Shown here piece by piece: positions 3,417 to 40,500 of a stretch of 48,686 nt of DNA. The stretch lies in IMG/VR virus record IMGVR_UViG_643348546_000001. One strand, given 5' to 3'. The stretch comes from a virus. Its lineage: Duplodnaviria; Heunggongvirae; Uroviricota; Caudoviricetes. Numbering within the stretch: the first letter of the stretch is position 1; every line of letters starts with the position of its first letter. Made by a program: the position numbers and the translations under genes. Under the pieces are notes generated by a model. The model was not told the DNA's origin. It made no database searches and saw nothing but the letters and a program-made list of their open reading frames with translations.

Positions 3417-3992
3417 TCACCCATCTTGCTGCGGTGCTACTATTGAAAAGTACTCACACCCTTTAGCCCAAATAGTTTTGATAGTTGTCCAACTGACTGG
3501 AACCTTGATTTCGATTCTTCCGCTGCCGTCACAAGTTTCGCAATCATCATCACCAAAGCATTCCGGGCAGCTTATAAACGTAGTTTCTGAAAATTCACCG
3601 GATAGCACACCCTTAGCGCCGTTCTCAGCGGTTAGTTTCTTCGGCACTATAACCCAACCATCCGGAGTTACCGGAGAGTTGCCATTTATATCGAAGTTTG
3701 GCTCTGCGTCCTGAACCAGGAGGATGTAACCATTCTTGGCAGTATCAAGTTCTAACGCCTCGGTGACGGTACCGAAATAGCGATTACCTAAATCCGCATC
3801 ACAAGTGCTTACATCAATGGAAACCTCCATGCCTTCGATTAATTCTGGCAAGTTGTAAGTTTGGCTTACAGGTTCTGCTCCCAGTGATGCCAGTGCAATT
3901 CGTGCCAGTTCCATTTGTTCGCCACGAGTAAGCCCGTTTTCAAGCGGATTTTTAATGAACAATTCAATACGTTCTTTGGTAATAGTGGTCAT
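3417..3992 (-). CDS. Hypothetical protein with C-terminal CxxC...CxxC zinc-ribbon-like motif
   Basis: 191-aa ORF in the leftward early operon; CPECFGDDDCETCDGSG near the C-terminus; no family recognised. Confidence 0.55.
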   Translation of the reverse strand: MTTITKERIELFIKNPLENGLTRGEQMELARIALASLGAEPVSQTYNLPELIEGMEVSIDVSTCDADLGNRYFGTVTEALELDTAKNGYILLVQDAEPNFDINGNSPVTPDGWVIVPKKLTAENGAKGVLSGEFSETTFISCPECFGDDDCETCDGSGRIEIKVPVSWTTIKTIWAKGCEYFSIVAPQQDG

Positions 3993-8644: not shown

Positions 8645-9157
8645 TTATTTCAAAGAAAAATTATGACTAGCGTATCTTGGAAGAAATTCATATAGTGTTA
8701 ATGTCTTAACGCCGTGAGAAGCAGCCGCATCCGGGATCATTATTCTTTTTTTAGGTTTGCCACCGGATGGTTTCTCATGGGTAATAATAGTATATCCATG
8801 TGTCATCGCATGGGCTATTAAAAAAGCATCTGCTTTTTCATGGCTTGCAAAATCAAACTTTGCCTTTTCGGTAACATCTAATTTAGTTGACCAATTTATT
8901 AACTTTGCATAATTTTCTATTGAACTATGCTCATCTTCGAAGAATGATGATGGTAACTCTTCTTTAATCCATTTACACAATGGATCATCTTTTGCACATA
9001 GTTCTTTTTTTACAGCATTAATGCTATAAATCAGACCATTAATGTGTAAAGCGAGAAGAAAATCCCAAAATATTTTGCAATAATTGAAGTTATATGCAAA
9101 GTTTTTTGCCTCTATGAAGACATTACTATCAATTAAGAATTTTCCATTATGAATCAT
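8645..9157 (-). CDS. PIN-like nuclease-fold protein (DUF4411-like), predicted toxin/effector
   Basis: 170-aa ORF; N-terminal FLIDSNVFIE and later acidic/Thr positions (ADAFLIAHAMTHGYTIITHEK) fit a PIN-like pattern; overlaps the upstream gene's stop by 4 nt; very AT-rich. Confidence 0.6.
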   Translation of the reverse strand: MIHNGKFLIDSNVFIEAKNFAYNFNYCKIFWDFLLALHINGLIYSINAVKKELCAKDDPLCKWIKEELPSSFFEDEHSSIENYAKLINWSTKLDVTEKAKFDFASHEKADAFLIAHAMTHGYTIITHEKPSGGKPKKRIMIPDAAASHGVKTLTLYEFLPRYASHNFSLK

Positions 9158-10293
9158 AGAGATTCTCGTTTTTTATAAAATTCAACAACTGTATCTGCTT
9201 TTACATTTAGCAGTACGCCTGCTTCCCTTAATGGTAATTGTTGAGACATTGCTTTGGAAATTATTATATTCGTAAGTTTTGGACTGTTACGAACAGGTAA
9301 TGTGTTAAAGAAAGAACCACCATTAGATTCTTTTTTGGGCTTATTGTAAGCTTGATCTTTAATTATCTCCAAAGTGTTTCTTTCTATCAAATCTAATTGT
9401 AACGCTTTGATTGCACAAGCGAAATCACTAACCTTAAATAACTTAGAAACCTCTTTTACTCGATAATAATTATTATCGCTGGATGCATTAAGCCAGAAAG
9501 ATTTGAAGAGATTATCAGGCATTAAGATTTCAGCAGCAACTTTATTACAAAAAGATTCTATGTTTTTTTCTGTGTCCCACCCAGAGACTCCATCGACTCC
9601 AAGCCAAAGATGAGCCACCTCATGAAATAATGTAAATACCTGCGCAGATAACGCGTCCGAGCTATTTACAAAAATGATCGGAGCAACGCTATCAGATATA
9701 CAGAAACCACGAAACTCTCGCGTGTCAAGTTTTCTTTTATTATTATTACCCACAACACCATTCTTGAAAACTAATACGCCAGTGTCTTCTATTAATTTTG
9801 CCACTTTAGAAAAATAGCTCTCAAAAGTGACATTTTTTATCTCTTTTTGTATATCAAAATGTATTGTGTTTGCTATGTCTGTAGCAACAACCTTATAATT
9901 TAATTTTCTATTAAATTTAAATTTACCAATAAAATCGAGTGGATCATCATTACCATTTTCTCTTAAATAGTCTTTGTACCACTCAAGTTTATATTCTATA
10001 TCATAGTAAACATCAAAAAAATCTTTTCCTAACTCACGGCTATTTATAGCTTGCCTTAAGTCAGGGATCTTGGGTTTGGCTGGAGTTGGTGGCGTTTCAA
10101 GAAATAAAAAACCGAAAGGGATTCCTCCAATTTTTGCCAGTTTTTCTGCTGCGGATTTACTTACCACTCCGTTAAGAAATTTATTAATCTTTTTGGGCAT
10201 GACTTGGTCAGCAAGAGTTTCGATAGAAACTCCTTGAGAATTTGCTATCCAATCAATCATCTTCCTAGACAATTGAAATTCAACCGCTGCCAT
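9154..10293 (-). CDS. HTH-domain / ImmA-IrrE-family (COG2856-like) zinc metallopeptidase protein
   Basis: 379-aa ORF; HExxH motif (FHEVAHLWLG) in the middle, HTH-like N-terminal segment; AGGTGA RBS 4 nt before the ATG; very AT-rich. Confidence 0.65.
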   Translation of the reverse strand: MAAVEFQLSRKMIDWIANSQGVSIETLADQVMPKKINKFLNGVVSKSAAEKLAKIGGIPFGFLFLETPPTPAKPKIPDLRQAINSRELGKDFFDVYYDIEYKLEWYKDYLRENGNDDPLDFIGKFKFNRKLNYKVVATDIANTIHFDIQKEIKNVTFESYFSKVAKLIEDTGVLVFKNGVVGNNNKRKLDTREFRGFCISDSVAPIIFVNSSDALSAQVFTLFHEVAHLWLGVDGVSGWDTEKNIESFCNKVAAEILMPDNLFKSFWLNASSDNNYYRVKEVSKLFKVSDFACAIKALQLDLIERNTLEIIKDQAYNKPKKESNGGSFFNTLPVRNSPKLTNIIISKAMSQQLPLREAGVLLNVKADTVVEFYKKRESL

Positions 10294-10422: not shown

Positions 10423-11115
10423 CTACCCATGCTTTCTATATGTCTGCGGCATGCTCCCGATGACTTTCCCGAAGATGAACACGCGGTTCATCTCGTCTTT
10501 CTCGATCGGGTCCCACGGTGAGTAGCTCTTGTTATCAGAGATAACCAGCAGCTTATCCTTCATCATTTGCAGGCGTTTTACATGGGCGGTGTCGTCATAC
10601 AGAAACGCATAGATACCATCACCGTCGAAAGATTTAACCGTGATATCAACGAACAGCAGATCACCTGGTTCGATCGTTCCTGACATGCTGTCACCACGCA
10701 CGTTAATGATGCGGATATTTTCCGCCTTCCTGCCATCGAACATGTGACGAGCATCGTCAAACGAGTATTCAACCGAGCGTAGAACTTCTACAAACTCACG
10801 GTTGATTACACCCGGCCCGGCACTGACTTCTATATCAAGAACGTCAATTTTGAAGTATTTGGAATGGCTGACAGCAGGCTTCCCTGATTGTTGACCGTCA
10901 TTTCTCATCGGGCCTATGCCTGAAGAGAGCCATTCTGTTCGAACACCCAATGCATTAGCTATTTCAACAATTTTTGTTGAGCCGCGCGCGTTGCCGCTTG
11001 TCAGTCTCCAGATTGTGGGTTGAGCTACGCCAGACGCCTTTGCAAGAGCGCCTTGAGACATTCCAGATTGTTCCATCGCTAGATTTAAGCGATCAGCAAG
11101 AGTTTCTTTTTTCAT
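10423..11115 (-). CDS. cI: CI-like prophage repressor (HTH + S24 LexA-like autopeptidase domain)
   Basis: Start assigned to the ATG at 11115 (the longer ORF starts with TTG); N-terminal HTH (LADRLNLAMEQSGMSQGALAKASGVAQPTIWRL), C-terminal Ser/Lys dyad context (RGDSMSGTIEPGDLLFVD ... KRL); not lambda cI by sequence; mRNA appears leaderless from PRM. Confidence 0.85.
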   Translation of the reverse strand: MKKETLADRLNLAMEQSGMSQGALAKASGVAQPTIWRLTSGNARGSTKIVEIANALGVRTEWLSSGIGPMRNDGQQSGKPAVSHSKYFKIDVLDIEVSAGPGVINREFVEVLRSVEYSFDDARHMFDGRKAENIRIINVRGDSMSGTIEPGDLLFVDITVKSFDGDGIYAFLYDDTAHVKRLQMMKDKLLVISDNKSYSPWDPIEKDEMNRVFIFGKVIGSMPQTYRKHG

Positions 11116-11225
11116 AAGTTTTAATTTATACGCTTGCGTATTGATGGTCAAAACACGTTTTGCTATTGCTTGGATTAATACGCATTGCTATTATTCATTC
11201 ATTGCAATACCAATAGGAATTGATA
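11116..11225. promoter_or_regulatory. Divergent PRM/PR promoters with operator repeats (OR)
   Basis: PR (plus strand): -35 TTGCTT 11166-11171, 17-nt spacer, -10 TATTAT 11189-11194. PRM (minus strand): -35 TTGACC (11144-11149), 17-nt spacer, -10 TAAATT (11122-11127), placing the transcript start about at the cI ATG. Palindrome TACGCTTGCGTA 11129-11140 and TTGCTATTGCT-type repeats. Confidence 0.6.
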
Positions 11226-11453
11226 ATGACAAATCAAACCATTCAACTCGCAATCAGTATTACAGGCAGTCAAAAACGACTGGCAGATCTATGCGGTGTA
11301 GCCCAACCCACAGTTTGGCGTTGGCTACACGGTGGCGGAATTGATGCCCGCTATGTAATGAAAATTGTCTCAGCCACTGGTGGAAAGATTAAACCAGCAG
11401 ATATTCGTCCCGACCTCGCACCATTGTTTAACGCGAGTAATTCTGCCGCCTAA
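11226..11453 (+). CDS. cro: Cro/YdaS-like HTH regulator
   Basis: ATG at 11226 after AGGA; HTH-like QKRLADLCGVAQPTVWRWLHGG; first gene of the rightward operon opposite the repressor. Confidence 0.8.
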   Translation: MTNQTIQLAISITGSQKRLADLCGVAQPTVWRWLHGGGIDARYVMKIVSATGGKIKPADIRPDLAPLFNASNSAA

Positions 11454-11477
11454 ACTGCGGCGTTAACTGATAAGGCA

Positions 11478-12023
11478 ATGACTATGCAACCACTTACATA
11501 CCAACAGACTAGCGGATTTAGCCCGACTGCGGTGATAAATCGTTCTCAAACAAAACAGGTGGCAGGCCACGAAAAAATCCGTGATGCCGTCCGCGCCTGG
11601 TCGGCTGTAGATAATCAGGATGTCGTTGCCACACTCATTGTGAATGAGTATCGGGAGCAGGGCGGCGGCACCATCGATTTCCCTGATGATGTCAGCCGTG
11701 CACGCCAGAAGCTGTTCCGCTTCCTCGATAACAAATTCGATTCTGAAAAATACCGAAATAACGTGCGTGAACTGACCCCGGCAATTCTGGCGGTACTACC
11801 GCTGGAATATCGCGGTTACCTGGTTGAGCAGGATAGCTTCATGGCTAGGTTGGCTGAAATGGAAAAGGAACTCAGTGAGGCAAAACAGGCTGTCATTCTC
11901 AACGCACCACGCCACCAGAAACTGAAGGAAATTAGTGAAGGTATTGTATCGATGTTTCGTGTGGACCCAGATCTGGCTGGTCCATTGATGGCGATGGTTA
12001 CTACCATGCTGGGGGCGATATGA
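11478..12023 (+). CDS. YdaT-family protein (CII-position regulator)
   Basis: 181-aa ORF; NEYREQGGG...RELTPAILAVLPLEYR parallels remembered Rac YdaT (EEYLRQGGG...QKLIPAILAILPRELR). Confidence 0.6.
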   Translation: MTMQPLTYQQTSGFSPTAVINRSQTKQVAGHEKIRDAVRAWSAVDNQDVVATLIVNEYREQGGGTIDFPDDVSRARQKLFRFLDNKFDSEKYRNNVRELTPAILAVLPLEYRGYLVEQDSFMARLAEMEKELSEAKQAVILNAPRHQKLKEISEGIVSMFRVDPDLAGPLMAMVTTMLGAI

Positions 12024-12109
12024 CAGGTTCAGAAATGGCGAAAGCCGGTCTGCTGGAACAGAACCGACTTTCAGGTGCAAATCGTAACACACTCATTGCG
12101 GGAGGAATT

Positions 12110-13039
12110 ATGGCAAACACTGCTGAGATATTCAATTTTCCAGTGCCGGATGCGGCACAAAAGGAGCCGCGCGTGGCAGATCTCGATGATGGTTATACGC
12201 GCATTGCAAATGAGTTGCTGGAAGCTGTGATGCTGGCCGGATTAACACAGCACCAGCTTCTGGTCTTCCTGGCTGTCATGCGCAAAACATATGGCTTTAA
12301 TAAAAAACTGGATTGGGTGAGCAACGAGCAACTGTCCGGATTGACCGGGATATTACCGCACAAGTGTTCTGCTGCAAAAAGTGTTCTGGTAAAGCGTGGG
12401 ATTTTGATTCAGAGCGGGCGGAATATCGGTATTAATAATGTGGTCAGTGAATGGTCAACATTACCCGAATCAGGTAAGAAAAATAAAGTTTACCTGAAAG
12501 AGGTAAATTTACCTGAATCAGGTAAGAAAAGTTTACCCAAATCAGGTAAAGGCGTTTACCCGAATCAGGTAAACACAAAAGACAAACTAACAAAAGACAA
12601 TATAAAACCTTTTTCGTCCGAGAATTCTGGCGAATCCTCTGACCAACCAGAAAACGATCTTCCTGTGGTGAAACCAGATGCTGCAATTCAGAGCGGCAGC
12701 AAGTGGGGGACAGCAGAAGACCTGACCGCCGCAGAGTGGATGTTTGACATGGTGAAGACCATCGCACCATCAGCCAGAAAACCGAATTTTGCAGGGTGGG
12801 CTAACGATATCCGCCTGATGCGTGAACGTGACGGACGTAACCACCGCGACATGTGCGTGCTTTTCCGCTGGGCATGCCAGGACAACTTCTGGTCCGGTAA
12901 CGTGCTAAGTCCGGCCAAACTCCGCGACAAGTGGACCCAACTCGAAATCAACCGTAACAAGCAACAGGCAGGCATGATAGCCAGCAAACCAAAACTCGAC
13001 CTGACAAACACTGACTGGATTTACGGGGTGGATTTATGA
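12110..13039 (+). CDS. O: Replication initiator O (chimeric: non-lambda N-terminal origin-binding domain, lambda-like C-terminal P-interaction domain)
   Basis: ATG at 12110 after GGAGGAATT; C-terminal about 130 aa match lambda O (SENSGESSDQPENDL...TNTDWIYGVDL); N-terminal half differs; iterons embedded in the gene. Confidence 0.9.
   Translation: MANTAEIFNFPVPDAAQKEPRVADLDDGYTRIANELLEAVMLAGLTQHQLLVFLAVMRKTYGFNKKLDWVSNEQLSGLTGILPHKCSAAKSVLVKRGILIQSGRNIGINNVVSEWSTLPESGKKNKVYLKEVNLPESGKKSLPKSGKGVYPNQVNTKDKLTKDNIKPFSSENSGESSDQPENDLPVVKPDAAIQSGSKWGTAEDLTAAEWMFDMVKTIAPSARKPNFAGWANDIRLMRERDGRNHRDMCVLFRWACQDNFWSGNVLSPAKLRDKWTQLEINRNKQQAGMIASKPKLDLTNTDWIYGVDL
12461..12615 (+). repeat. Replication origin: five 18-19 bp iterons (TTTACC[C/T]GAA[A/T]CAGGTAA[A/G] type) followed by an AT-rich segment
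   Basis: Iterons at 12461-12477, 12489-12507, 12508-12526, 12532-12550, 12555-12573, each an internal inverted repeat TTACC..GGTAA, then the A-rich tract CACAAAAGACAAACTAACAAAAGACAATATAAAACC. Confidence 0.85.
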
Positions 13040-14315: not shown

Positions 14316-15068
14316 ATGGATCCTAAATTACTGTATGCCACGTTTAAACGAAATGACGCACCAGCTTGGCGCTGCCCGAACTGTATGAATGAAACACTGG
14401 AGATTGTCGCTGATAGTTTTGTAGAAACTGATTCAAGCGCAACAACTCAGTTTAGAGATGAAGTATGGTTTGATGAGGAAATGTCGGGAGGAGTATTCAG
14501 TTGCGTGCTGCGCTGTACCCGCCAAGCCTGCCAGGAGAAGGTTGCTTTGTCTGGGCAGGTTGTTGCTGTAGAATGCTTCAATGACGAAATGACGGAGCGT
14601 TGGTATGTTTCTGGTTTCCGTCCTAAGTATTTCTATCCACCACTTCCTCTATTCCTGTTTCCTGAAAAGTGCCCTGAAGATATAGCTGATCTCTTGGCGG
14701 AAGTATCAGCTCTGATCCCCTCGCACCCAGCTTCAGCGGTGAACACCATGAGAACCATACTGGAGATGATGCTTGATAGTCTTGATGTACCAAGAGAGAA
14801 AACAGTTAAAGGCAAGATAATACGTCTTTCTACGCATGAAAGAATCACAAATTATTCAGATAAACTGGGACCAAATAAAGATGCATTCATGGCGTTAAAG
14901 TGGTTGGGGAATCACGGCAGTCATGGAGGGATTAAAGTCACAAGGTCCTCTATTAATGATGCCTGCATTCTCATTGGTCATTTGATTGACTTCTTATTCT
15001 TAGAAAGCCCGGATGTAACTATTCATATTGAACGGATAAACAACGTGTATGCACCCAAAAAGGAGTAA
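14316..15068 (+). CDS. Hypothetical protein with N-terminal zinc-ribbon-like CxxC motifs (cargo gene)
   Basis: 250-aa ORF; GGAG RBS before the ATG at 14316; WRCPNCMNE...SCVLRCTRQACQEK cysteine cluster; lies in an insertion between ren and the nin block; inverted repeat TTAACG-N10-CGTTAA just upstream. Confidence 0.7.
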   Translation: MDPKLLYATFKRNDAPAWRCPNCMNETLEIVADSFVETDSSATTQFRDEVWFDEEMSGGVFSCVLRCTRQACQEKVALSGQVVAVECFNDEMTERWYVSGFRPKYFYPPLPLFLFPEKCPEDIADLLAEVSALIPSHPASAVNTMRTILEMMLDSLDVPREKTVKGKIIRLSTHERITNYSDKLGPNKDAFMALKWLGNHGSHGGIKVTRSSINDACILIGHLIDFLFLESPDVTIHIERINNVYAPKKE

Positions 15069-15079
15069 AACGTAACGCC

Positions 15080-15328
15080 ATGTCGAAGCGGAATATTGCC
15101 GCTAAAACACAAGAAGAGCGCGAGAAGGTTAACGTTGACCTTGCTGTCTCCTGAGTTACCTACAAAGAGCGCCTTAATATACCGGTTATTGCCGAAGCGG
15201 TGATGCGTGAGCAGCCTGAGCATTTGCGGGACTATTTTTTGGAGCGGCCACGACATTACCGCGAGCAGAGCATCGCGCTGCCCAAGGCATCCGCTCCTCG
15301 ACATCTTAAGCAGGAAGGTGAAAAATGA
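15080..15328 (+). pseudogene. Small ORF (83 codons) interrupted by one in-frame TGA; its terminal TGA overlaps the ATG of the downstream gene
   Basis: [81 protein letters not shown]; internal TGA at 15152-15154; ATGA overlap with the next gene at 15325-15328. Confidence 0.45.
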
Positions 15329-15807
15329 TAAGTGCAGAAGGACTGCAGCGGTTACTTAATTTATCGGAGCCTCCATCTGATGAACTGATTGATGTTTATC
15401 TTCAATTCTGCATGATTTTTCCTAGGGTCGAGCAAAGTTTTTTTGGTGGCTTTGCTAAGGGGGAAGACAGTTTAAATTATGCGCGAACGTTACTTGACGC
15501 CGGGATAAAGGTGCCCAACGAACTTTTTCACGATTTTAAGCAGAGATACATTTTGAATGGGGATGCGCAGGAAAGACTTGACGCCCTCTGTGTCGGTCGA
15601 GAGAGAGATAGGCGGGGAATAGTTAATGGACTTCAAAATGACGCAGCAACAGATCTAAACACCATGTCTACAGTATTAAAGATAGTTATAAGGATAAGAA
15701 ATAACCTTTTCCACGGAAATAAAGACGCTTATCTTTTTGTTGATTCTCAAGAGCAAGCGCAACTATTGAGGTGGTGCGTGAGATTTCTCCAAGGATTATT
15801 AAATTAA
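15325..15807 (+). CDS. Hypothetical protein with HEPN-like R-x4-H motif (candidate RNase effector)
   Basis: 160-aa ORF; C-terminal region carries [15 protein letters not shown] (R-N-x-x-x-H) as in HEPN-superfamily RNases; start overlaps the upstream small ORF stop. Confidence 0.6.
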
Positions 15808-15996
15808 TCTACCTTTGATTTTCCATAATCAACCAGCAATAATAATGTCACCGGAGCCTGAACAACATCGGTGACTTCTGCGCTAAACGGGGACGTTTAT
15901 GCGCACATACAATCTAAACTCTCTTTTGCTGTCACAGATGCAGAAATGCACCTGCGATTTTTTGCATCCAGCGTTTGACCTCTGCGGAGGTGAATC

Positions 15997-16452
15997 GTGA
16001 ACCTCCTACAAGATGGCATCAAATTGCATCGTGGTAACTTCACCGCTATCGGTCAGCAGATCCAGCCTTATCTGGAGGACGGCAAATGCTTTCGCATGGT
16101 GCTTAAACCGTGGCGCGAGAGACGCAGTCTTTCCCAGAATGCACTCAGCCACATGTGGTACAGCGAAATCAGTGAATACCTCATCAGCAGGGGTAAAACG
16201 TTCGCCACTCCACCTTGGGTAAAAGATGCTCTCAAACACACTTATCTCGGTTATGAAACCAAAGAACTGGTTGATGTCGTAACCGGTGAAATCACCACCA
16301 TTCAGTCATTACGTCATACCTCCGATCTCGATACCGGAGAGATGTATGTCTTCCTGTGTAAGGTTGAAGCCTGGGCGATGAATATTGGCTGCCACCTGAC
16401 TATTCCGCAGAGCTGCGAGTTCCAGCTGCTCCGCGACAAGCAGGAGGCGTAA
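15997..16452 (+). CDS. ybcN: YbcN-like protein of the nin region (DLP12 YbcN family)
   Basis: 151-aa ORF, GTG start after GGAGG; placement and length match DLP12 ybcN preceding ninE-ybcO-rusA. Confidence 0.7.
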
Positions 16453-37516: not shown

Positions 37517-40500
37517 ATGGGTAAAGGAAGCAGTAAGGGGCATACCCCGCGCGAAGCGAAGGACAACCTGAAGTCCACGCAGTTGCTGAGTGTGATCGAT
37601 GCCATCAGCGAAGGGCCGGTTGAAGGTCCGGTGGATGGATTAAAAAGCGTGCTGCTGAACAGTACGCCGGTGCTGGACACTGAGGGGAATACCAACATCT
37701 CCGGTGTCACGGTGGTGTTCCGTGCCGGTGAGCAGGAGCAGACACCGCCGGAGGGGTTTGAATCCTCCGGCTCCGAGACGGTGCTGGGTACGGAAGTGAA
37801 ATATGACACGCCGATCACCCGCACCATTACGTCTGCAAACATCGACCGTCTGCGCTTTACCTTCGGTGTACAGGCACTGGTGGAAACCACCTCAAAGGGT
37901 GACAGGAATCCGTCGGAAGTCCGTCTGCTGGTTCAGATACAACGTAACGGTGGCTGGGTGACGGAAAAAGACATCACCATTAAGGGCAAAACCACCTCGC
38001 AGTATCTGGCCTCGGTGGTGGTGGGTAGCCTGCCGCCGCGCCCGTTTAATATCCGGATGCGCAGGATGACGCCGGACAGCACCACAGACCAGCTGCAGAA
38101 CAAAACGCTCTGGTCGTCATACACCGAAATCATCGATGTGAAACAGTGCTACCCGAACACGGCACTGGTCGGCGTGCAGGTGGACTCGGAGCAGTTCGGC
38201 AGCCAGCAGGTGAGCCGTAATTATCATCTTCGCGGGCGCATTCTGCAGGTGCCGTCGAACTATAACCCGCAGACGCGGCAATACAGCGGTATCTGGGACG
38301 GAACGTTTAAGCCGGCATACAGCAACAACCCGGCCTGGTGTCTGTGGGATATGCTGACCCACCCGCGCTACGGCATGGGGAAACGTCTTGGTGCGGCGGA
38401 TGTGGATAAATGGGCGCTGTATGTCATCGGCCAGTACTGCGACCAGTCAGTGCCGGACGGTTTTGGCGGCACGGAGCCGCGCATCACCTGTAATGCCTAC
38501 CTGACCACGCAGCGTAAGGCGTGGGATGTGCTCAGTGATTTCTGCTCGGCGATGCGCTGTATGCCGGTATGGAACGGGCAGACGCTGACGTTCGTGCAGG
38601 ACCGACCATCAGATAAGGTGTGGACCTATAACCGCAGTAATGTGGTGATGCCGGATGATGGCGCGCCGTTCCGCTACAGCTTCAGCGCCCTGAAGGACCG
38701 CCATAATGCCGTTGAGGTGAACTGGATTGACCCGAACAACGGCTGGGAGACGGCGACAGAGCTTGTTGAAGATACGCAGGCCATTGCCCGTTACGGTCGT
38801 AATGTCACGAAGATGGATGCCTTTGGCTGTACCAGCCGGGGGCAGGCACACCGCGCCGGGCTGTGGCTGATTAAAACGGAACTGCTGGAGACGCAGACCG
38901 TGGATTTCAGCGTGGGTGCTGAAGGGCTTCGCCATGTACCGGGCGATGTCATTGAAATCTGCGATGATGACTATGCCGGTATCAGCACCGGTGGTCGCGT
39001 GCTGGCGGTGAACAGCCAGACCCGGACGCTGACGCTCGACCGTGAAATCACGCTGCCATCCTCCGGTACCACGCTGATAAGCCTGGTTGACGGAAGTGGT
39101 AATCCGGTCAGCGTGGAGGTTCAGCCCGTCACCGACGGACTTAAGGTGAAAGTGAACCGGGTTCCTGATGGCGTTGCAGAATACAGTGTGTGGGGGCTGA
39201 AGTTGCCGACGTTGCGTCAGCGCCTGTTCCGCTGTGTGAGTATCCGTGAGAACGATGACGGCACGTATGCCATCACTGCCGTGCAGCATGTACCGGAAAA
39301 AGAAGCCATCGTGGATAACGGGGCGCACTTTGACGGCGACCAGAGCAGCACGGTGAATGGTGTCACGCCGCCAGCGGTGCAGCACCTGACCGCCGAAGTC
39401 ACCGCAGACAGCGGGGAATATCAGGTGCTGGCGCGCTGGGACACGCCGAAGGTGGTGAAGGGCGTGAGCTTCCTGCTCCGTCTGACCGTAACAGCGGATG
39501 ACAGCAGTGAGCGGCTGGTCAGCACGGCCCGGACGACGGAAACCACATACCGCTTCACGCAACTGGCGCTGGGGAACTACAGGCTGACAGTCCGGGCGGT
39601 AAATGCGTGGGGGCAGCAGGGCGATCCGGCGTCGGTATCGTTCCGGATTGCCGCACCGGCAGCACCGTCGAGGATTGAGCTGACGCCGGGCTATTTTCAG
39701 ATAACCGCCACGCCGCATCTTGCCGTTTATGACCCGACGGTACAGTTTGAGTTCTGGTTCTCGGAAAAGCGGATTACCGATATCAGGCAGGTTGAAACCA
39801 CAGCACGCTATCTTGGCACGGCGCTGTACTGGATAGCCGCCAGTATCAATATCAAACCGGGCCATGATTATTACTTTTATATCCGCAGTGTGAACACCGT
39901 TGGCAAATCGGCATTCGTGGAGGCTGTTGGTCAGCCGAGTGATGATGCATCCGGTTATCTGGATTTTTTCAAAGGCGAGATAGGGAAAACCCATCTGGCT
40001 CAGGAGCTGTGGACGCAGATTGATAACGGTCAGCTTGCGCCTGACCTGGCTGAAATCAGGACGTCCATTACGGATGTCAGCAATGAAATCACGCAGACCG
40101 TCAATAAGAAACTGGAAGACCAGAGTGCGGCAATTCAGCAGATACAGAAGGTTCAGGTTGATACAAATAATAACCTGAACAGCATGTGGGCTGTGAAGCT
40201 GCAGCAGATGCAGGACGGACGCCTTTATATCGCGGGTATTGGTGCCGGTATTGAGAACACCCCTGACGGCATGCAGAGTCAGGTGCTGCTGGCGGCAGAC
40301 AGGATTGCGATGATTAATCCTGCGAATGGCAACACAAAGCCGATGTTTGTTGGGCAGGGCGATCAGATATTCATGAACGAAGTGTTCCTGAAACGCCTGA
40401 CGGCTCCCACCATTACCAGCGGCGGTAATCCTCCGGTATTTTCCCTGACACCGGACGGGCGGCTGACGGCGAAAAATGCCGATATCAGCGGTAACGTGAA

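What the first reader, a model, noticed from the sequence alone, without database searches (positions are those of the whole stretch)
11478..12023. YdaT-like protein in the cII position
Seen: the gene after cro encodes a 181-aa protein with the segment NEYREQGGG...RELTPAILAVLPLEYR, which parallels Rac prophage YdaT as I recall it, rather than lambda CII. Established: YdaS/YdaT pairs occupy the cro/cII positions of Rac-type immunity regions and YdaT has been described as toxic when overexpressed. Inference: the lysis-lysogeny switch of this phage is of the Rac type despite the lambda-like remainder.
Basis: partly seen in the sequence, partly recalled or inferred. Interest (0 to 1): 0.4.

Follow-up and report, generated by a model that had tools for sequence, protein, structure and literature searches.

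The report
phi80-type (YdaT-family) CII lysogeny regulator
The gene after cro really does encode a YdaT-family protein, but it is the already-known phi80-type version of the phage CII lysogeny regulator, so the finding is correct and ordinary; the useful extra is that its known DNA-recognition palindrome occurs at a few conserved, testable places in this phage.

Summary
Observation confirmed. ORF 11478-12023 (+, 181 aa; conserved start probably ATG 11484) matches Pfam YdaT_toxin (E=8e-30). It is 35% identical to Rac YdaT, and its AlphaFold model matches only the two YdaT crystal structures. It is much closer (66%) to the genetically defined CII of phage phi80, and 95-99% identical to genes annotated cII in sequenced E. 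coli phages. Published work already calls YdaT a CII equivalent homologous to phi80 CII, so this is already known.

'Rac-type switch' is only partly right. cro is YdaS-family, but the repressor is a lambda/LexA-type HTH+S24 protein with no similarity to RacR, and O/P are lambda-type.

Predicted mechanism (inferred, not shown): a tetrameric HTH factor binding TTGATT-N6-AATCAA. The window has exactly two core matches (0.09 expected).
- One overlaps the cro ATG.
- One is perfect and overlaps the -35/spacer of a conserved promoter-plus-hairpin cassette 182 bp upstream of ninB. Its half-sites are invariant across 32 versions and it is also present in K-12 DLP12.
- A degenerate box inside cII's 5' end lies 20 nt from a conserved TAnnnT, which makes it a candidate PRE.

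The ninB box also occurs in phages with lambda-type CII, so CII binding there is unproven.

The parts
11478..12023 (+). cII gene: YdaT-family, phi80-type CII transcription factor (181 aa; conserved start probably ATG 11484, giving 179 aa)
   Evidence: Pfam YdaT_toxin E=8e-30; PHROG 163 'CII-like transcriptional activator' E=7e-67; 66% identical to phi80 CII; AF2 model matches PDB 3c4r/8bt1 only.
11226..11453 (+). cro-like gene (YdaS family HTH)
   Evidence: PF15943 E=1e-14; 31% identical to Rac YdaS, E=3e-10; PHROG 35.
10423..11115 (-). cI repressor, HTH_3 + Peptidase_S24 (lambda CI/LexA architecture; not RacR-like). The ORF extends to a TTG at 11151, but ATG 11115 coincides with the transcription start predicted from a minus-strand promoter (-35 at 11151-11146, -10 at 11128-11123).
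11220..11237 (.). S1: YdaT-box-like palindrome TTGATAATGACAAATCAA overlapping the cro start codon (the ATG lies in the spacer). One mismatch to TTGATT-N6-AATCAA; perfect to the core TTGAT-N8-ATCAA.
   Evidence: Weakly constrained: 25 of 30 same-immunity loci are intact and 5 have a half-site mutation; the site is absent from the other cro allele and from phi80.
11532..11549 (.). S2: degenerate box GTGATAaatcgtTCTCAA inside the 5' end of cII (codons 19-24 of the predicted disordered N-terminus). A box-like sequence occurs at the same position in all lineages examined. Candidate activator site for a leftward PRE-like promoter.
   Evidence: Roughly positionally equivalent to Rac's YdaT-box over the ydaT ATG (PMC11879457). 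It lies in coding sequence, so conservation is confounded.
11506..11511 (-). Candidate -10 (TAGTCT on the minus strand) of a PRE-like leftward promoter, exactly 20 nt from S2 (box centre about -41.5; no -35 hexamer). Predicted start near 11499, reading antisense through cro into cI.
   Evidence: TAnnnT is present in this register in all 14 lineages; third-codon-position conservation peaks at cII codons 3-14, and codon 11's third base is T in 13 of 13 sequences despite amino-acid changes. This is inference only.
15815..15832 (.). S3: perfect YdaT-box TTGATTTTCCATAATCAA. The left half-site is the -35 hexamer of the ninB-leader promoter.
   Evidence: (0.003 perfect boxes expected per window). The box is always about 182 bp upstream of ninB. 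Half-sites are invariant while the spacer centre varies, and conservation starts exactly at 15815.
15838..15843 (+). -10 hexamer AATAAT (cATAAT in most relatives) of the ninB-leader promoter, with 17-bp spacing from TTGATT. Predicted start near 15850.
   Evidence: the only promoter-like site in 15600-16100, 9 of 12 matches; ATAAT invariant. Phage 82 record X92588 annotates putative -35 and -10 signals at the homologous positions.
15847..15875 (+). Conserved hairpin GTCACCGGAG-CCTGAACAA-CATCGGTGAC directly after the predicted start. The stem covaries and the loop motif YUGARC is conserved.
   Evidence: 16 variants all fold with the motif in the loop. Annotated as a 'possible regulator-binding site' in phage 82 and as IR4 in phi80. 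No Rfam match.
12030..12135 (-). M3/oop-like antisense RNA region with its promoter (-35 at 12135-12130, -10 at 12112-12107, TG-extended) in the cII-O spacer.
   Evidence: promoter; aligns with the phi80 and HK639 regions annotated as M3 RNA. Boundaries are approximate.

Best explanation
The ORF encodes the phage's CII, the early regulator that pushes an infected cell towards lysogeny, in its phi80-type form, which belongs to the YdaT protein family.

Shown by sequence and structure comparison:
- An N-terminal disordered tail of about 27 aa.
- A five-helix POU-like helix-turn-helix domain (residues 31-115). It has the long loop before the recognition helix that is typical of YdaT.
- The recognition helix is residues 72-84 (SRARQKLFRFLDN), with Arg81 equivalent to Rac YdaT R57.
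- A long helix (121-140) that forms the tetramer core in YdaT.
- Two further conserved C-terminal helices specific to the phi80-type subfamily.

Inferred:
- It is made from the PR transcript after cro.
- It assembles as a tetramer.
- It binds palindromes of the type TTGAT(T/A)-N6-(A/T)ATCAA, as shown experimentally for the Rac and CP-933P homologues.

Proposed targets in this phage (all inference):
1. S2 (11532-11549), an imperfect box inside its own 5' coding region. It is centred about 41.5 bp upstream of a leftward start defined by a conserved TAnnnT with no -35. This would be a CII-dependent PRE-like promoter that reads antisense through cro into cI.
2. S3 (15815-15832), a perfect box covering -35 to -18 of a constitutive-looking rightward promoter in front of orf33-ninB and the nin/Q region. 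Occupancy would most simply repress it and so lower downstream nin/Q expression. That would be a functional counterpart of lambda's CII-dependent anti-Q promoter paQ.
3. S1 (11220-11237), a near-perfect box over the cro start codon. This could be a roadblock or a looping partner. It is weakly constrained and allele-specific.

An M3/oop-like antisense RNA downstream completes the module.
For: Family and fold:
- Pfam PF06254 E=8e-30 and PHROG 163 E=7e-67.
- 35% identity to Rac YdaT.
- AF2 model with pLDDT 77.5 and the helix pattern above.
- Foldseek finds only 3c4r and 8bt1: probability 1.00, TM 0.69-0.73, rmsd about 3 A.

CII identity:
- 65.6% identity over residues 3-181 to phi80 cII, and 95-99% to genes annotated cII in 16 E. 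coli phage records.
- Position between cro and O.
- PMC8630535 states that CP-933P YdaT is homologous to phi80 CII and activates a PRE-like promoter.
- PMC9986795 and PMC11879457 give the tetramer, the box and the R57 requirement.
- Arg81 is invariant, and the recognition helix is closer to CP-933P's (QKIFRWLD vs QKLFRFLD) than Rac's is. Rac and CP-933P nevertheless cross-bind each other's boxes.

Sites:
- Exactly two core hits in 48.7 kb against 0.09 expected, P(>=2)=0.003; a perfect 12-position box is expected 0.003 times.
- S3 is conserved in register in 32 distinct leader versions. Information content jumps from about 0.2 to 2 bits at the first base of the box and dips in the spacer.
- The box is present in divergent phages with 52-72% identical CII (HK639, CobraSix, KO-TP1, HK225/phi80 variant) and in prophages of three other genera.
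- 87% of E. coli-like loci with this leader (and an identifiable cII) carry the YdaT-type cII.
- S2/PRE: the box-like sequence and TAnnnT are in fixed register in 14 lineages, and synonymous-site conservation peaks at cII codons 3-14.
Against: - No binding or expression data exist for this protein. Specificity is extrapolated from homologues that are 26-35% identical.
- The ninB-leader box is not exclusive to this CII type. Five of 8 E. coli-like loci with lambda-type CII (one with 100% lambda CII) keep a perfect box, and within E. coli there is no association (Fisher p=0.69).
- One phi80-type lineage (L173) has lost the right half-site.
- The left half-site doubles as the -35 hexamer, so part of its conservation needs no regulator.
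- S1 is mutated at key bases in 5 of 30 loci, and is absent from the alternative cro allele and from phi80.
- S2 matches only 8 of 12 consensus positions and lies in coding sequence. A composite of this quality is expected about 0.08 times by chance in the cro-cII region (own estimate).
- In Rac the box activates a promoter about 190 bp away. In CP-933P the box lies downstream of the promoter. The family's activation geometry is therefore not settled, and the -41.5 model is my own inference.
- Whether S3 occupancy represses or activates is unknown.
Confidence: 0.85

Rival explanations
1. The whole immunity region is a Rac-type switch: RacR-like repressor, YdaS, YdaT, working as in the Rac prophage.
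For: cro and cII belong to the YdaS and YdaT families. A YdaT-box-like palindrome overlaps a start codon with the ATG in the spacer, as in Rac.
Against: The repressor is HTH_3+S24 with no similarity to RacR (BLASTP E=2.6). CII is 66% identical to phi80 CII against 35% to Rac YdaT and carries phi80-type extensions. The replication genes are lambda O/P rather than ydaU/ydaV. The Rac-style box sits on cro, not on the ydaT homologue.
Confidence: 0.08
2. The protein is the toxin (or antitoxin partner) of a YdaS/YdaT toxin-antitoxin pair, as the Pfam names suggest, rather than a transcription factor.
For: The Pfam families are named YdaT_toxin and YdaS_toxin. Rac YdaT overexpression causes filamentation and death (PMC11879457).
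Against: PMC5917428, PMC8630535 and PMC11879457 argue and show that YdaS and YdaT are Cro and CII analogues. Rac YdaT's toxicity goes through transcriptional activation of rcsA, and CP-933P YdaT is not toxic. The fold is an HTH DNA-binding domain. The phi80 homologue is a genetically named cII.
Confidence: 0.03
3. The ninB-leader palindrome (S3) is not a CII target. Either it is an operator for some other phage or host dimeric regulator, or it is simply a -35 hexamer plus a neutrally inherited flank, and the match to the YdaT-box is coincidental.
For: The box is retained in loci with lambda-type CII, and there is no association within E. coli. TTGATT serves as the -35 with ideal 17-bp spacing. 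The cassette is inherited as a unit with ninB and sits in DLP12, which has no immunity region.
Against: A -35 role does not explain invariance of AATCAA at -23 to -18 while neighbouring positions vary. A perfect match to an independently defined 12-position motif is expected 0.003 times per genome. Symmetric co-variation in phi80 and HK225 (TTGATA...TATCAA) points to a dimeric binder. In other genera the perfect box tracks the phi80-type CII: 3 of 4 against 0 of 7, p=0.024. The only alternative binder examined, HusR, binds elsewhere with another motif.
Confidence: 0.4

Closest known systems
Phage phi80 CII (gene cII, NC_021190 35671-36213) and its homologues in HK639, HK225, mEp237 and CobraSix
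   Same: 66% identity over the full length. Same length (about 180 aa), and the same N-terminal tail and conserved C-terminal extension. Same position between a cro-like gene and O, and the same M3/oop-like spacer downstream. A box of the same type sits upstream of ninB.
   Different: The neighbouring cI and cro are of a different specificity (no tblastn match to phi80 cI or gene 30). phi80's ninB box is the symmetric variant TTGATA-N6-TATCAA. The phi80 annotation defines no PRE or CII sites, so even the reference system is mechanistically uncharacterised.
YdaT of cryptic prophage CP-933P (PDB 8bt1; PMC9986795, PMC8630535) and PDB 3c4r
   Same: Same fold (TM about 0.7) and the same long alpha2-alpha3 loop. 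The recognition helix is very similar (QK[IL]FR[WF]LD). It also occupies the CII position after a YdaS-type Cro. Its experimentally defined box TTGATT-N6-AATCAA occurs perfectly in this window.
   Different: Only about 26-27% identity. CP-933P YdaT lacks the N-terminal tail and the two C-terminal helices. Its box lies at the ydaS/ydaT junction, where this window has none. Its repressor is PaaR2 rather than an S24 repressor.
YdaT of the Rac prophage, E. coli K-12 (b1358; PMC11879457)
   Same: 35% identity over the HTH domain. Arg81 is equivalent to R57 and the neighbouring aromatic to W58. The family box is ATGATT-N6-AATCAA. S2 lies roughly where Rac's box lies relative to the aligned protein.
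   Different: Rac YdaT is 140 aa. Its His56 is not conserved here (Phe80). Rac uses RacR. The Rac box acts on a promoter about 190 bp away inside ydaS. Toxicity through host rcsA is specific to the Rac protein.
Lambda CII (PF05269-type, 97 aa)
   Same: Same genetic position and presumed role. The proposed PRE geometry is similar, with the activator site inside the 5' end of cII and leftward transcription antisense to cro. An oop-like RNA lies downstream. The proposed S3 function parallels paQ.
   Different: No sequence similarity (no Pfam Phage_CII hit). Lambda CII recognises direct repeats TTGC-N6-TTGC, not an inverted repeat. The size and oligomerisation elements differ.

Membership tests
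YdaT family (Pfam PF06254) | Significant match to the family HMM above the curated threshold | tested here: met
   E=8.1e-30, 103.6 bits against a cutoff of 21; residues 69-156 cover profile positions 1-90 of 92.
YdaT family (Pfam PF06254) | POU-like five-helix HTH domain with a long alpha2-alpha3 loop, followed by a long C-terminal helix (PMC9986795) | tested here: met
   helices 31-45, 47-60, loop 61-71, helices 72-84, 90-106, 109-115, 121-140; only 3c4r and 8bt1 match (probability 1.00, TMt 0.69-0.73). This rests on a predicted structure, not a solved one.
YdaT family (Pfam PF06254) | Recognition-helix arginine essential for DNA binding (Rac R57), followed by an aromatic residue (W58) | tested here: met
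   R81 is invariant across 17 sequences including Rac YdaT, and position 82 is F/W/Y. Rac H56 is not conserved (F80 here, and F in CP-933P).
YdaT family (Pfam PF06254) | Tetramer through an antiparallel bundle of the long helix | not testable with these tools
   Only a monomer was modelled. Helix 121-140 aligns with alpha6, and E131, A135 and A138 are invariant.
YdaT family (Pfam PF06254) | Binds the inverted repeat TTGATT-N6-AATCAA | tested here: inconclusive
   The motif is present (perfect at 15815, core-perfect at 11220; P(>=2)=0.003) and conserved. Binding was not tested, and the ninB box also occurs with lambda-type CII.
YdaT family (Pfam PF06254) | Encoded directly after a YdaS-type Cro in a prophage immunity region | tested here: met
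phi80-type CII subfamily (about 180-aa YdaT-family CII; PHROG 163) | Full-length similarity to phi80 CII, including the N-terminal tail and the conserved C-terminal region (APxHQKLKE.SEGI....PLM.MV..MLG) | tested here: met
   65.6% over residues 3-181; alignment; PHROG 163 E=7e-67, profile positions 1-168 of 168.
phi80-type CII subfamily (about 180-aa YdaT-family CII; PHROG 163) | Genetic CII function (clear-plaque phenotype, establishment of repression) | not testable with these tools
   Rests on the phi80 cII gene name in records X13065 and NC_021190 and on CP-933P and Rac experiments (PMC8630535, PMC11879457).
Rac-type immunity region (racR-ydaS-ydaT) | RacR-like repressor divergent from ydaS | tested here: not met
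   no similarity (best E=2.6); the repressor is HTH_3 + Peptidase_S24.
Rac-type immunity region (racR-ydaS-ydaT) | YdaT-box overlapping the ydaT start or the ydaS-ydaT junction | tested here: not met
   no match with 3 or fewer mismatches at 11440-11500. Only a degenerate box is found 54 nt inside the gene.
Lambda CII family (Pfam Phage_CII) | Match to the lambda CII HMM or sequence | tested here: not met
   One search lists only YdaT_toxin at E<=0.01. In tblastn, lambda CII detects different loci.
Type II toxin-antitoxin pair | Toxin activity neutralised by the upstream partner | not testable with these tools
   The literature argues against it for this family (PMC5917428, PMC8630535, PMC11879457).

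The most novel reading that the evidence does not exclude
The YdaT-family CII has a direct, previously unrecognised target outside the immunity region: a perfect operator built into an N-independent promoter-plus-hairpin cassette in front of orf33-ninB (the nin/Q region). The cassette is conserved across phi80-like and many E. coli lambdoid phages. CII would thereby throttle (or switch on) nin/Q-region transcription as a counterpart of lambda paQ. Because the same cassette with a perfect box sits in DLP12 of E. coli K-12, Rac YdaT would cross-regulate the ylcH-ybcN(-rusA) operon of another cryptic prophage. Together with the proposed PRE inside cII, this would give the first target map for the phi80-type CII.
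Probability: 0.4. Interest if true: 0.5.

Novelty: already known. Interest (0 to 1): 0.27.

Why it matters
The finding itself mainly corrects annotation habits. 'YdaT_toxin' proteins in the cII slot of lambdoid phages are CII-type lysogeny regulators, and this one is the phi80 type, not evidence of an unusual switch.

Its practical value is that the binding palindrome, defined experimentally only for two cryptic-prophage homologues, can now be projected onto viable phages (this phage, phi80, HK639, 4A7 and others). That projection yields concrete, cheap tests:
- a candidate PRE inside cII;
- a conserved operator on the ninB-leader promoter;
- a predicted Rac-to-DLP12 cross-talk in K-12.

If confirmed, these would fill the gap that the phi80 annotation still has (no PRE or CII sites) and would extend the known CII regulon logic to a second, unrelated protein family.

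Tried and rejected
1. A box at the cro/cII junction, as in CP-933P and Rac. None is found with 3 or fewer mismatches.
2. A leftward, CII-activated antisense promoter at the ninB box. Rejected because nothing to the left of the box is conserved; the mosaic junction is at the first base of the box.
3. The ninB box as an exclusive marker of YdaT-type CII phages. Rejected: NinB-selected loci include lambda-type CII phages with perfect boxes. The association holds only in other genera, with small numbers.
4. The hairpin as a repeated nut/boxB-type site or a known RNA family. The loop motif does not recur in the early region, and Rfam has no match.
5. RNAalifold on a MAFFT alignment of the hairpins was uninformative because stem indels broke the register. 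It was replaced by individual folds. The strand of the hairpin could not be decided from energies.
6. Host factor HusR/YnfL as the binder of the DLP12 leader. It binds between ybcO and rusA with a different motif.
7. Enhanced synonymous-site conservation at S2 itself. Not seen; the peak lies at codons 3-14 instead.
8. NCBIfam has no model for the protein. PADLOC has nothing relevant for the ORFs next to the box.
9. A CII-type box near int/xis (a PI analogue). None is found with 2 or fewer mismatches.
Full report
**1. Observation**

The window is a complete lambdoid phage genome of about 48.7 kb. It is 96-98% identical across the immunity/replication region to Escherichia phages PhiR68_2, PhiR70_1, 4A7, Lambda_4C10 and Perceval. 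ORF 11478..12023 (+, 181 aa) exists exactly as described and contains the quoted peptide stretches.

Its neighbours are:
- a 75-aa cro-like gene upstream (11226..11453);
- a divergent repressor gene (10423..11115/11151, minus strand);
- lambda-type O and P downstream (Pfam Phage_rep_O E=2e-33; Phage_lambda_P E=3e-61).

**2. Family assignment**

- Pfam gives a single strong hit, YdaT_toxin PF06254 (E=8.1e-30). The upstream gene hits YdaS_toxin PF15943 (E=1e-14).
- PHROGs places the protein in phrog_163, 'CII-like transcriptional activator' (E=7e-67, full profile length).
- Direct BLASTP against Rac YdaT from E. coli K-12 MG1655 (fetched) gives 35% identity over 96 residues, E=2e-12.
- The cro-like protein is 31% identical to Rac YdaS.
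- phmmer against PDB sequences finds only 8bt1 (CP-933P YdaT) and 3c4r.
- An AlphaFold2 model built on 33 homologues (mean pLDDT 77.5) shows the following:
  - a disordered N-terminus (residues 1-27);
  - five helices (31-115), with a long loop (61-71) before the putative recognition helix (72-84);
  - a long helix (121-140);
  - two extra C-terminal helices (145-180).
- Foldseek against the PDB returns only the two YdaT crystal structures as significant (probability 1.00, TM 0.69-0.73 normalised to the target, rmsd about 3 A).
- Arg81 aligns with Rac R57, the residue whose mutation (together with H56) abolishes DNA binding, and it is invariant (PMC11879457).

The observation and the YdaT-family assignment are therefore confirmed.

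**3. What it is more precisely**

- tblastn against 50,697 phage records finds 50 records. Sixteen E. coli phage records carry a 95-99% identical gene, annotated cII or 'CII-like transcriptional activator' in most of them.
- The classical phage phi80 cII is 65.6% identical over residues 3-181. HK639 and HK225 are 52% identical, mEp237 67% and CobraSix 72%. Rac-type YdaT proteins match at only about 35% over the HTH domain.
- The alignment shows a coherent subfamily of about 180 aa. Compared with Rac YdaT it has an N-terminal tail and a strongly conserved C-terminal extension of about 45 aa.
- Most members start at the equivalent of the window's second Met, so ATG 11484 is the likelier start.
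- A profile search of 1.84 billion cluster representatives finds only 145 clusters, so the family is small.
- The literature already covers the point:
  - Jobling argued that YdaS and YdaT are Cro and CII analogues (PMC5917428).
  - Jurenas et al. showed that CP-933P YdaT activates a PRE-like promoter, and state that it is homologous to phi80 CII (PMC8630535).
  - The structure, the tetramer and the TTGATT-N6-AATCAA operator are in PMC9986795.
  - Rac YdaT's sites and its activation of racR from a reverse promoter are in PMC11879457.

The finding is therefore already known biology and, in near-identical phages, already annotated.

**4. Is the switch 'Rac type'?**

Only in part.
- The repressor is an HTH_3 + Peptidase_S24 protein of lambda CI/LexA architecture with no similarity to RacR.
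- A minus-strand promoter (-35 at 11151-11146, -10 at 11128-11123) would start transcription at about the ATG at 11115. That would be a leaderless cI message, as at lambda PRM.
- The cII-O spacer aligns with the region annotated as M3 (oop-like) RNA in phi80 and HK639. It has its own minus-strand promoter.
- The O ORF's real start is probably ATG 12110 (the PHROG alignment begins at residue 31).

The module is best described as a phi80-type cII (with an M3-like RNA) joined to an independent cI/cro specificity and lambda-type replication genes.

**5. How it probably works: DNA sites**

I scanned the window for the experimentally defined box. The results were:
- one perfect match at 15815-15832 (TTGATTTTCCATAATCAA);
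- one single-mismatch match at 11220-11237 (TTGATAATGACAAATCAA);
- nothing at the cro/cII junction.

In first-order Markov simulations a perfect box is expected 0.003 times per window. With the core TTGAT-N8-ATCAA, which also fits phi80's own variant, the window has exactly these two hits against 0.09 expected, P(>=2)=0.003. phi80 has exactly one hit, at the equivalent ninB-leader position.

**6. The ninB-leader site (S3)**

*A conserved cassette that begins at the box.*
- DNA homology with other phages begins exactly at the box.
- In 80 IMG/VR loci selected through cII, and about 100 further loci selected through NinB (80 IMG/VR plus 19 genome contigs), a box lies about 182 bp upstream of ninB in nearly all.
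- The DNA to the left of the box is unrelated between versions.
- In 32 distinct in-register versions, information content jumps from about 0.2 to 2.0 bits at the first T of the box. It dips in the centre of the spacer and is again maximal at AATCAA. It dips once more, then is maximal at (c/a)ATAAT and through a hairpin.

*Promoter and hairpin.*
- TTGATT and AATAAT are 17 bp apart and form the only promoter-like site in 15600-16100.
- The phage 82 record annotates a putative -35, -10 and 'possible regulator-binding site' at the homologous positions. phi80 annotates IR4 there.
- The cassette is therefore [operator overlapping -35 to -18]-[-10]-[5' hairpin]-orf33-ninB.
- Invariance of AATCAA inside the promoter spacer is not explained by sigma-70 recognition, so it argues for a dimeric DNA-binding protein. 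phi80 and HK225 carry the symmetric variant TTGATA-N6-TATCAA.
- A leftward promoter is not supported, because nothing to the left of the box is conserved.
- The core promoter looks competent on its own and the box covers -35 to -18, so I favour repression by occupancy (about 60:40 over activation). That would reduce N-independent transcription into the nin/Q region, a functional parallel to lambda paQ. This step is inference.

**7. Who binds S3?**

The YdaT-family CII is the only protein shown to bind exactly this palindrome. The window's recognition helix (RQKLFRFLD) is closer to CP-933P's (TQKIFRWLD) than Rac's is, yet Rac and CP-933P cross-recognise each other's boxes.

The association test was sobering.
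- Among NinB-selected E. coli-like loci with an identifiable cII, 55 of 63 carry the YdaT-type cII.
- However, 5 of the 8 with lambda-type CII, including one with a 100% lambda CII, keep a perfect box (Fisher p=0.69).
- In other genera the perfect box accompanies the phi80-type CII in 3 of 4 loci, against 0 of 7 for lambda-type (p=0.024). Numbers are small, and lineages L172 and L173 show loss of the right half-site with either CII type.
- Divergent phages with 52-72% identical CII keep perfect or core-perfect boxes (HK639, CobraSix, KO-TP1, HK225, phi80). BHUENT3 has a 32%-identical YdaT-type CII and a related palindrome over its -10.

I put the probability that S3 is a genuine CII operator at about 0.5-0.6.

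The same cassette with a perfect box (TTGATTTTGGGAAATCAA) lies upstream of ylcH-ybcN in DLP12 of E. coli K-12, and about half of complete E. coli genomes have the cassette. The Rac YdaT study found its host target by genetics rather than by motif search, so a Rac-YdaT/DLP12 interaction remains an open prediction. I found no paper linking the box to the ninB leader. HusR binds elsewhere in that operon with another motif.

**8. The immunity-region sites and a candidate PRE**

S1 overlaps the cro start codon, with the ATG in the spacer, 20-37 nt downstream of the likely PR start (my reading of the sequence). It is intact in 25 of 30 loci with this cro allele and mutated at a key G or C in 5. It is absent from the second cro allele found with the same cII, and absent from phi80. 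It is therefore at best an allele-specific auxiliary site.

S2 is a more general feature: a degenerate box inside cII's 5' end.

| Lineage | S2 sequence |
|---|---|
| window (11532-11549) | GTGATAaatcgtTCTCAA |
| phi80 | ATGATAaaccgcGCTCAA |
| mEp237 | ATGATAaatcgcAATCAA |
| HK639 | ATGATTtaccagAATCGC |
| Klebsiella phages (ST974, ST16) | CTGATAaagcgaAATCAG |
| PHB10 | ATGATAttcccgTGTCAT |

- S2 lies in the segment encoding the predicted disordered N-terminus.
- It is roughly where Rac's box sits relative to the aligned proteins.
- On the minus strand, every lineage has a TAnnnT hexamer exactly 20 nt downstream of this box (window TAGTCT, 11511 to 11506). That places the box centre at about -41.5 with no recognisable -35, which is the layout of an activator-dependent promoter.
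- Third-codon-position conservation peaks at cII codons 3-14, which span this hexamer and the predicted start. Codon 11's third base is T in 13 of 13 sequences although the amino acid varies.
- This would be a PRE analogue, with its activator site inside cII's 5' end as in lambda, reading antisense through cro into cI.
- Coding constraints confound the evidence, and a composite of this quality is expected about 0.08 times by chance in the region.

I give the PRE model about 0.45.

**9. Verdict**

- The gene is the phi80-type, YdaT-family CII, a known kind that is already annotated as cII in near-identical phages. The finding itself is ordinary.
- The mechanism (a tetrameric HTH regulator of lysogeny establishment binding TTGAT-N8-ATCAA palindromes) rests on homology.
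- The target map proposed here (a PRE inside cII; an operator on the ninB-leader promoter; an auxiliary site on the cro ATG) is inference. It is supported by motif statistics and comparative conservation, and it is cheap to test.

Noticed in passing
window 15847-15875 (+); also L004 (phi80) about 38740-38770 and L191 (MG1655 DLP12) 3817-3845: A hairpin lies immediately after the predicted ninB-leader transcription start. Its stem sequence differs completely between lineages (GTCACCGGAG/CTCCGGTGAC; CTGCCAG/CTGGCAG; GGTTGTCAG/CTGACAACC), but all 16 variants fold, and a conserved YUGARC motif always sits in a loop of about 9 nt. There is no Rfam match and no second copy in the early region. Phage 82 annotates it as a 'possible regulator-binding site' and phi80 as IR4. 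Its function and its strand are unknown.
   Followed up: partly
L191 3785-3802 (E. coli K-12 MG1655, NC_000913.3 about 572,284-572,301, DLP12 prophage): K-12's DLP12 carries a perfect YdaT-box (TTGATTTTGGGAAATCAA) in the same promoter/hairpin cassette upstream of ylcH-ybcN. This predicts that Rac YdaT could bind another cryptic prophage's promoter. The cassette occurs in 2709 of 5426 complete E. coli genomes.
   Followed up: partly
window 12030-12135 (-): A likely M3/oop-like antisense RNA lies in the cII-O spacer. It has a TG-extended minus-strand promoter (-35 at 12135-12130, -10 at 12112-12107) and a hairpin at about 12044-12076 with a U-G wobble only on the minus strand. The spacer aligns with the annotated M3 RNA regions of phi80 and HK639. 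As a consequence, O probably starts at ATG 12110, not 12020.
   Followed up: partly
window 8645-10293 (-): There is a two-gene insert between cI and the N/PL region, in the rexAB position. One gene encodes a 379-aa HTH + Peptidase_M78 (ImmA/IrrE-like) protein that matches PADLOC capP and RmrA models (E=1e-14 and 6e-08). The other encodes a 170-aa DUF4411 protein. This is possibly a prophage-encoded defence or TA-like module.
   Followed up: partly
window 14316-15807 (+): Two accessory ORFs lie between the ren-like gene and the ninB-leader box: a 250-aa protein with DUF4145, and a 160-aa protein with no Pfam or PADLOC hit. This slot holds unrelated cargo in every related phage (the left flank of the box is mosaic), so it behaves as a moron insertion hotspot bounded by the box.
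   Followed up: partly
window 11445-11461 (+): An inverted repeat GCCGC-CTAAACT-GCGGC overlaps the cro stop codon. A similar GCCGC..GCGGC hairpin occurs at the same place in phi80, HK639, HK225 and CobraSix. It is unique in the window. It is possibly a nutR boxB-like or tR1-related element.
   Followed up: partly
loci L016-L049 and others (IMG/VR), compared with window 10423-11453: The same cII allele (97-100% identical) is found joined to two different immunity alleles. In the second, cI is 82% and cro 46% identical to the window's, and it lacks the cro-ATG box. The recombination junction therefore lies between cro and cII.
   Followed up: partly
window 11129-11142 and 11177-11192: Operator-like palindromes lie in the cI-cro intergenic region (ATACGCTTGCGTAT, and the related AATACGCATTGCTATT). 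They are distinct from the YdaT-box and are presumably the CI/Cro operators.
   Followed up: no
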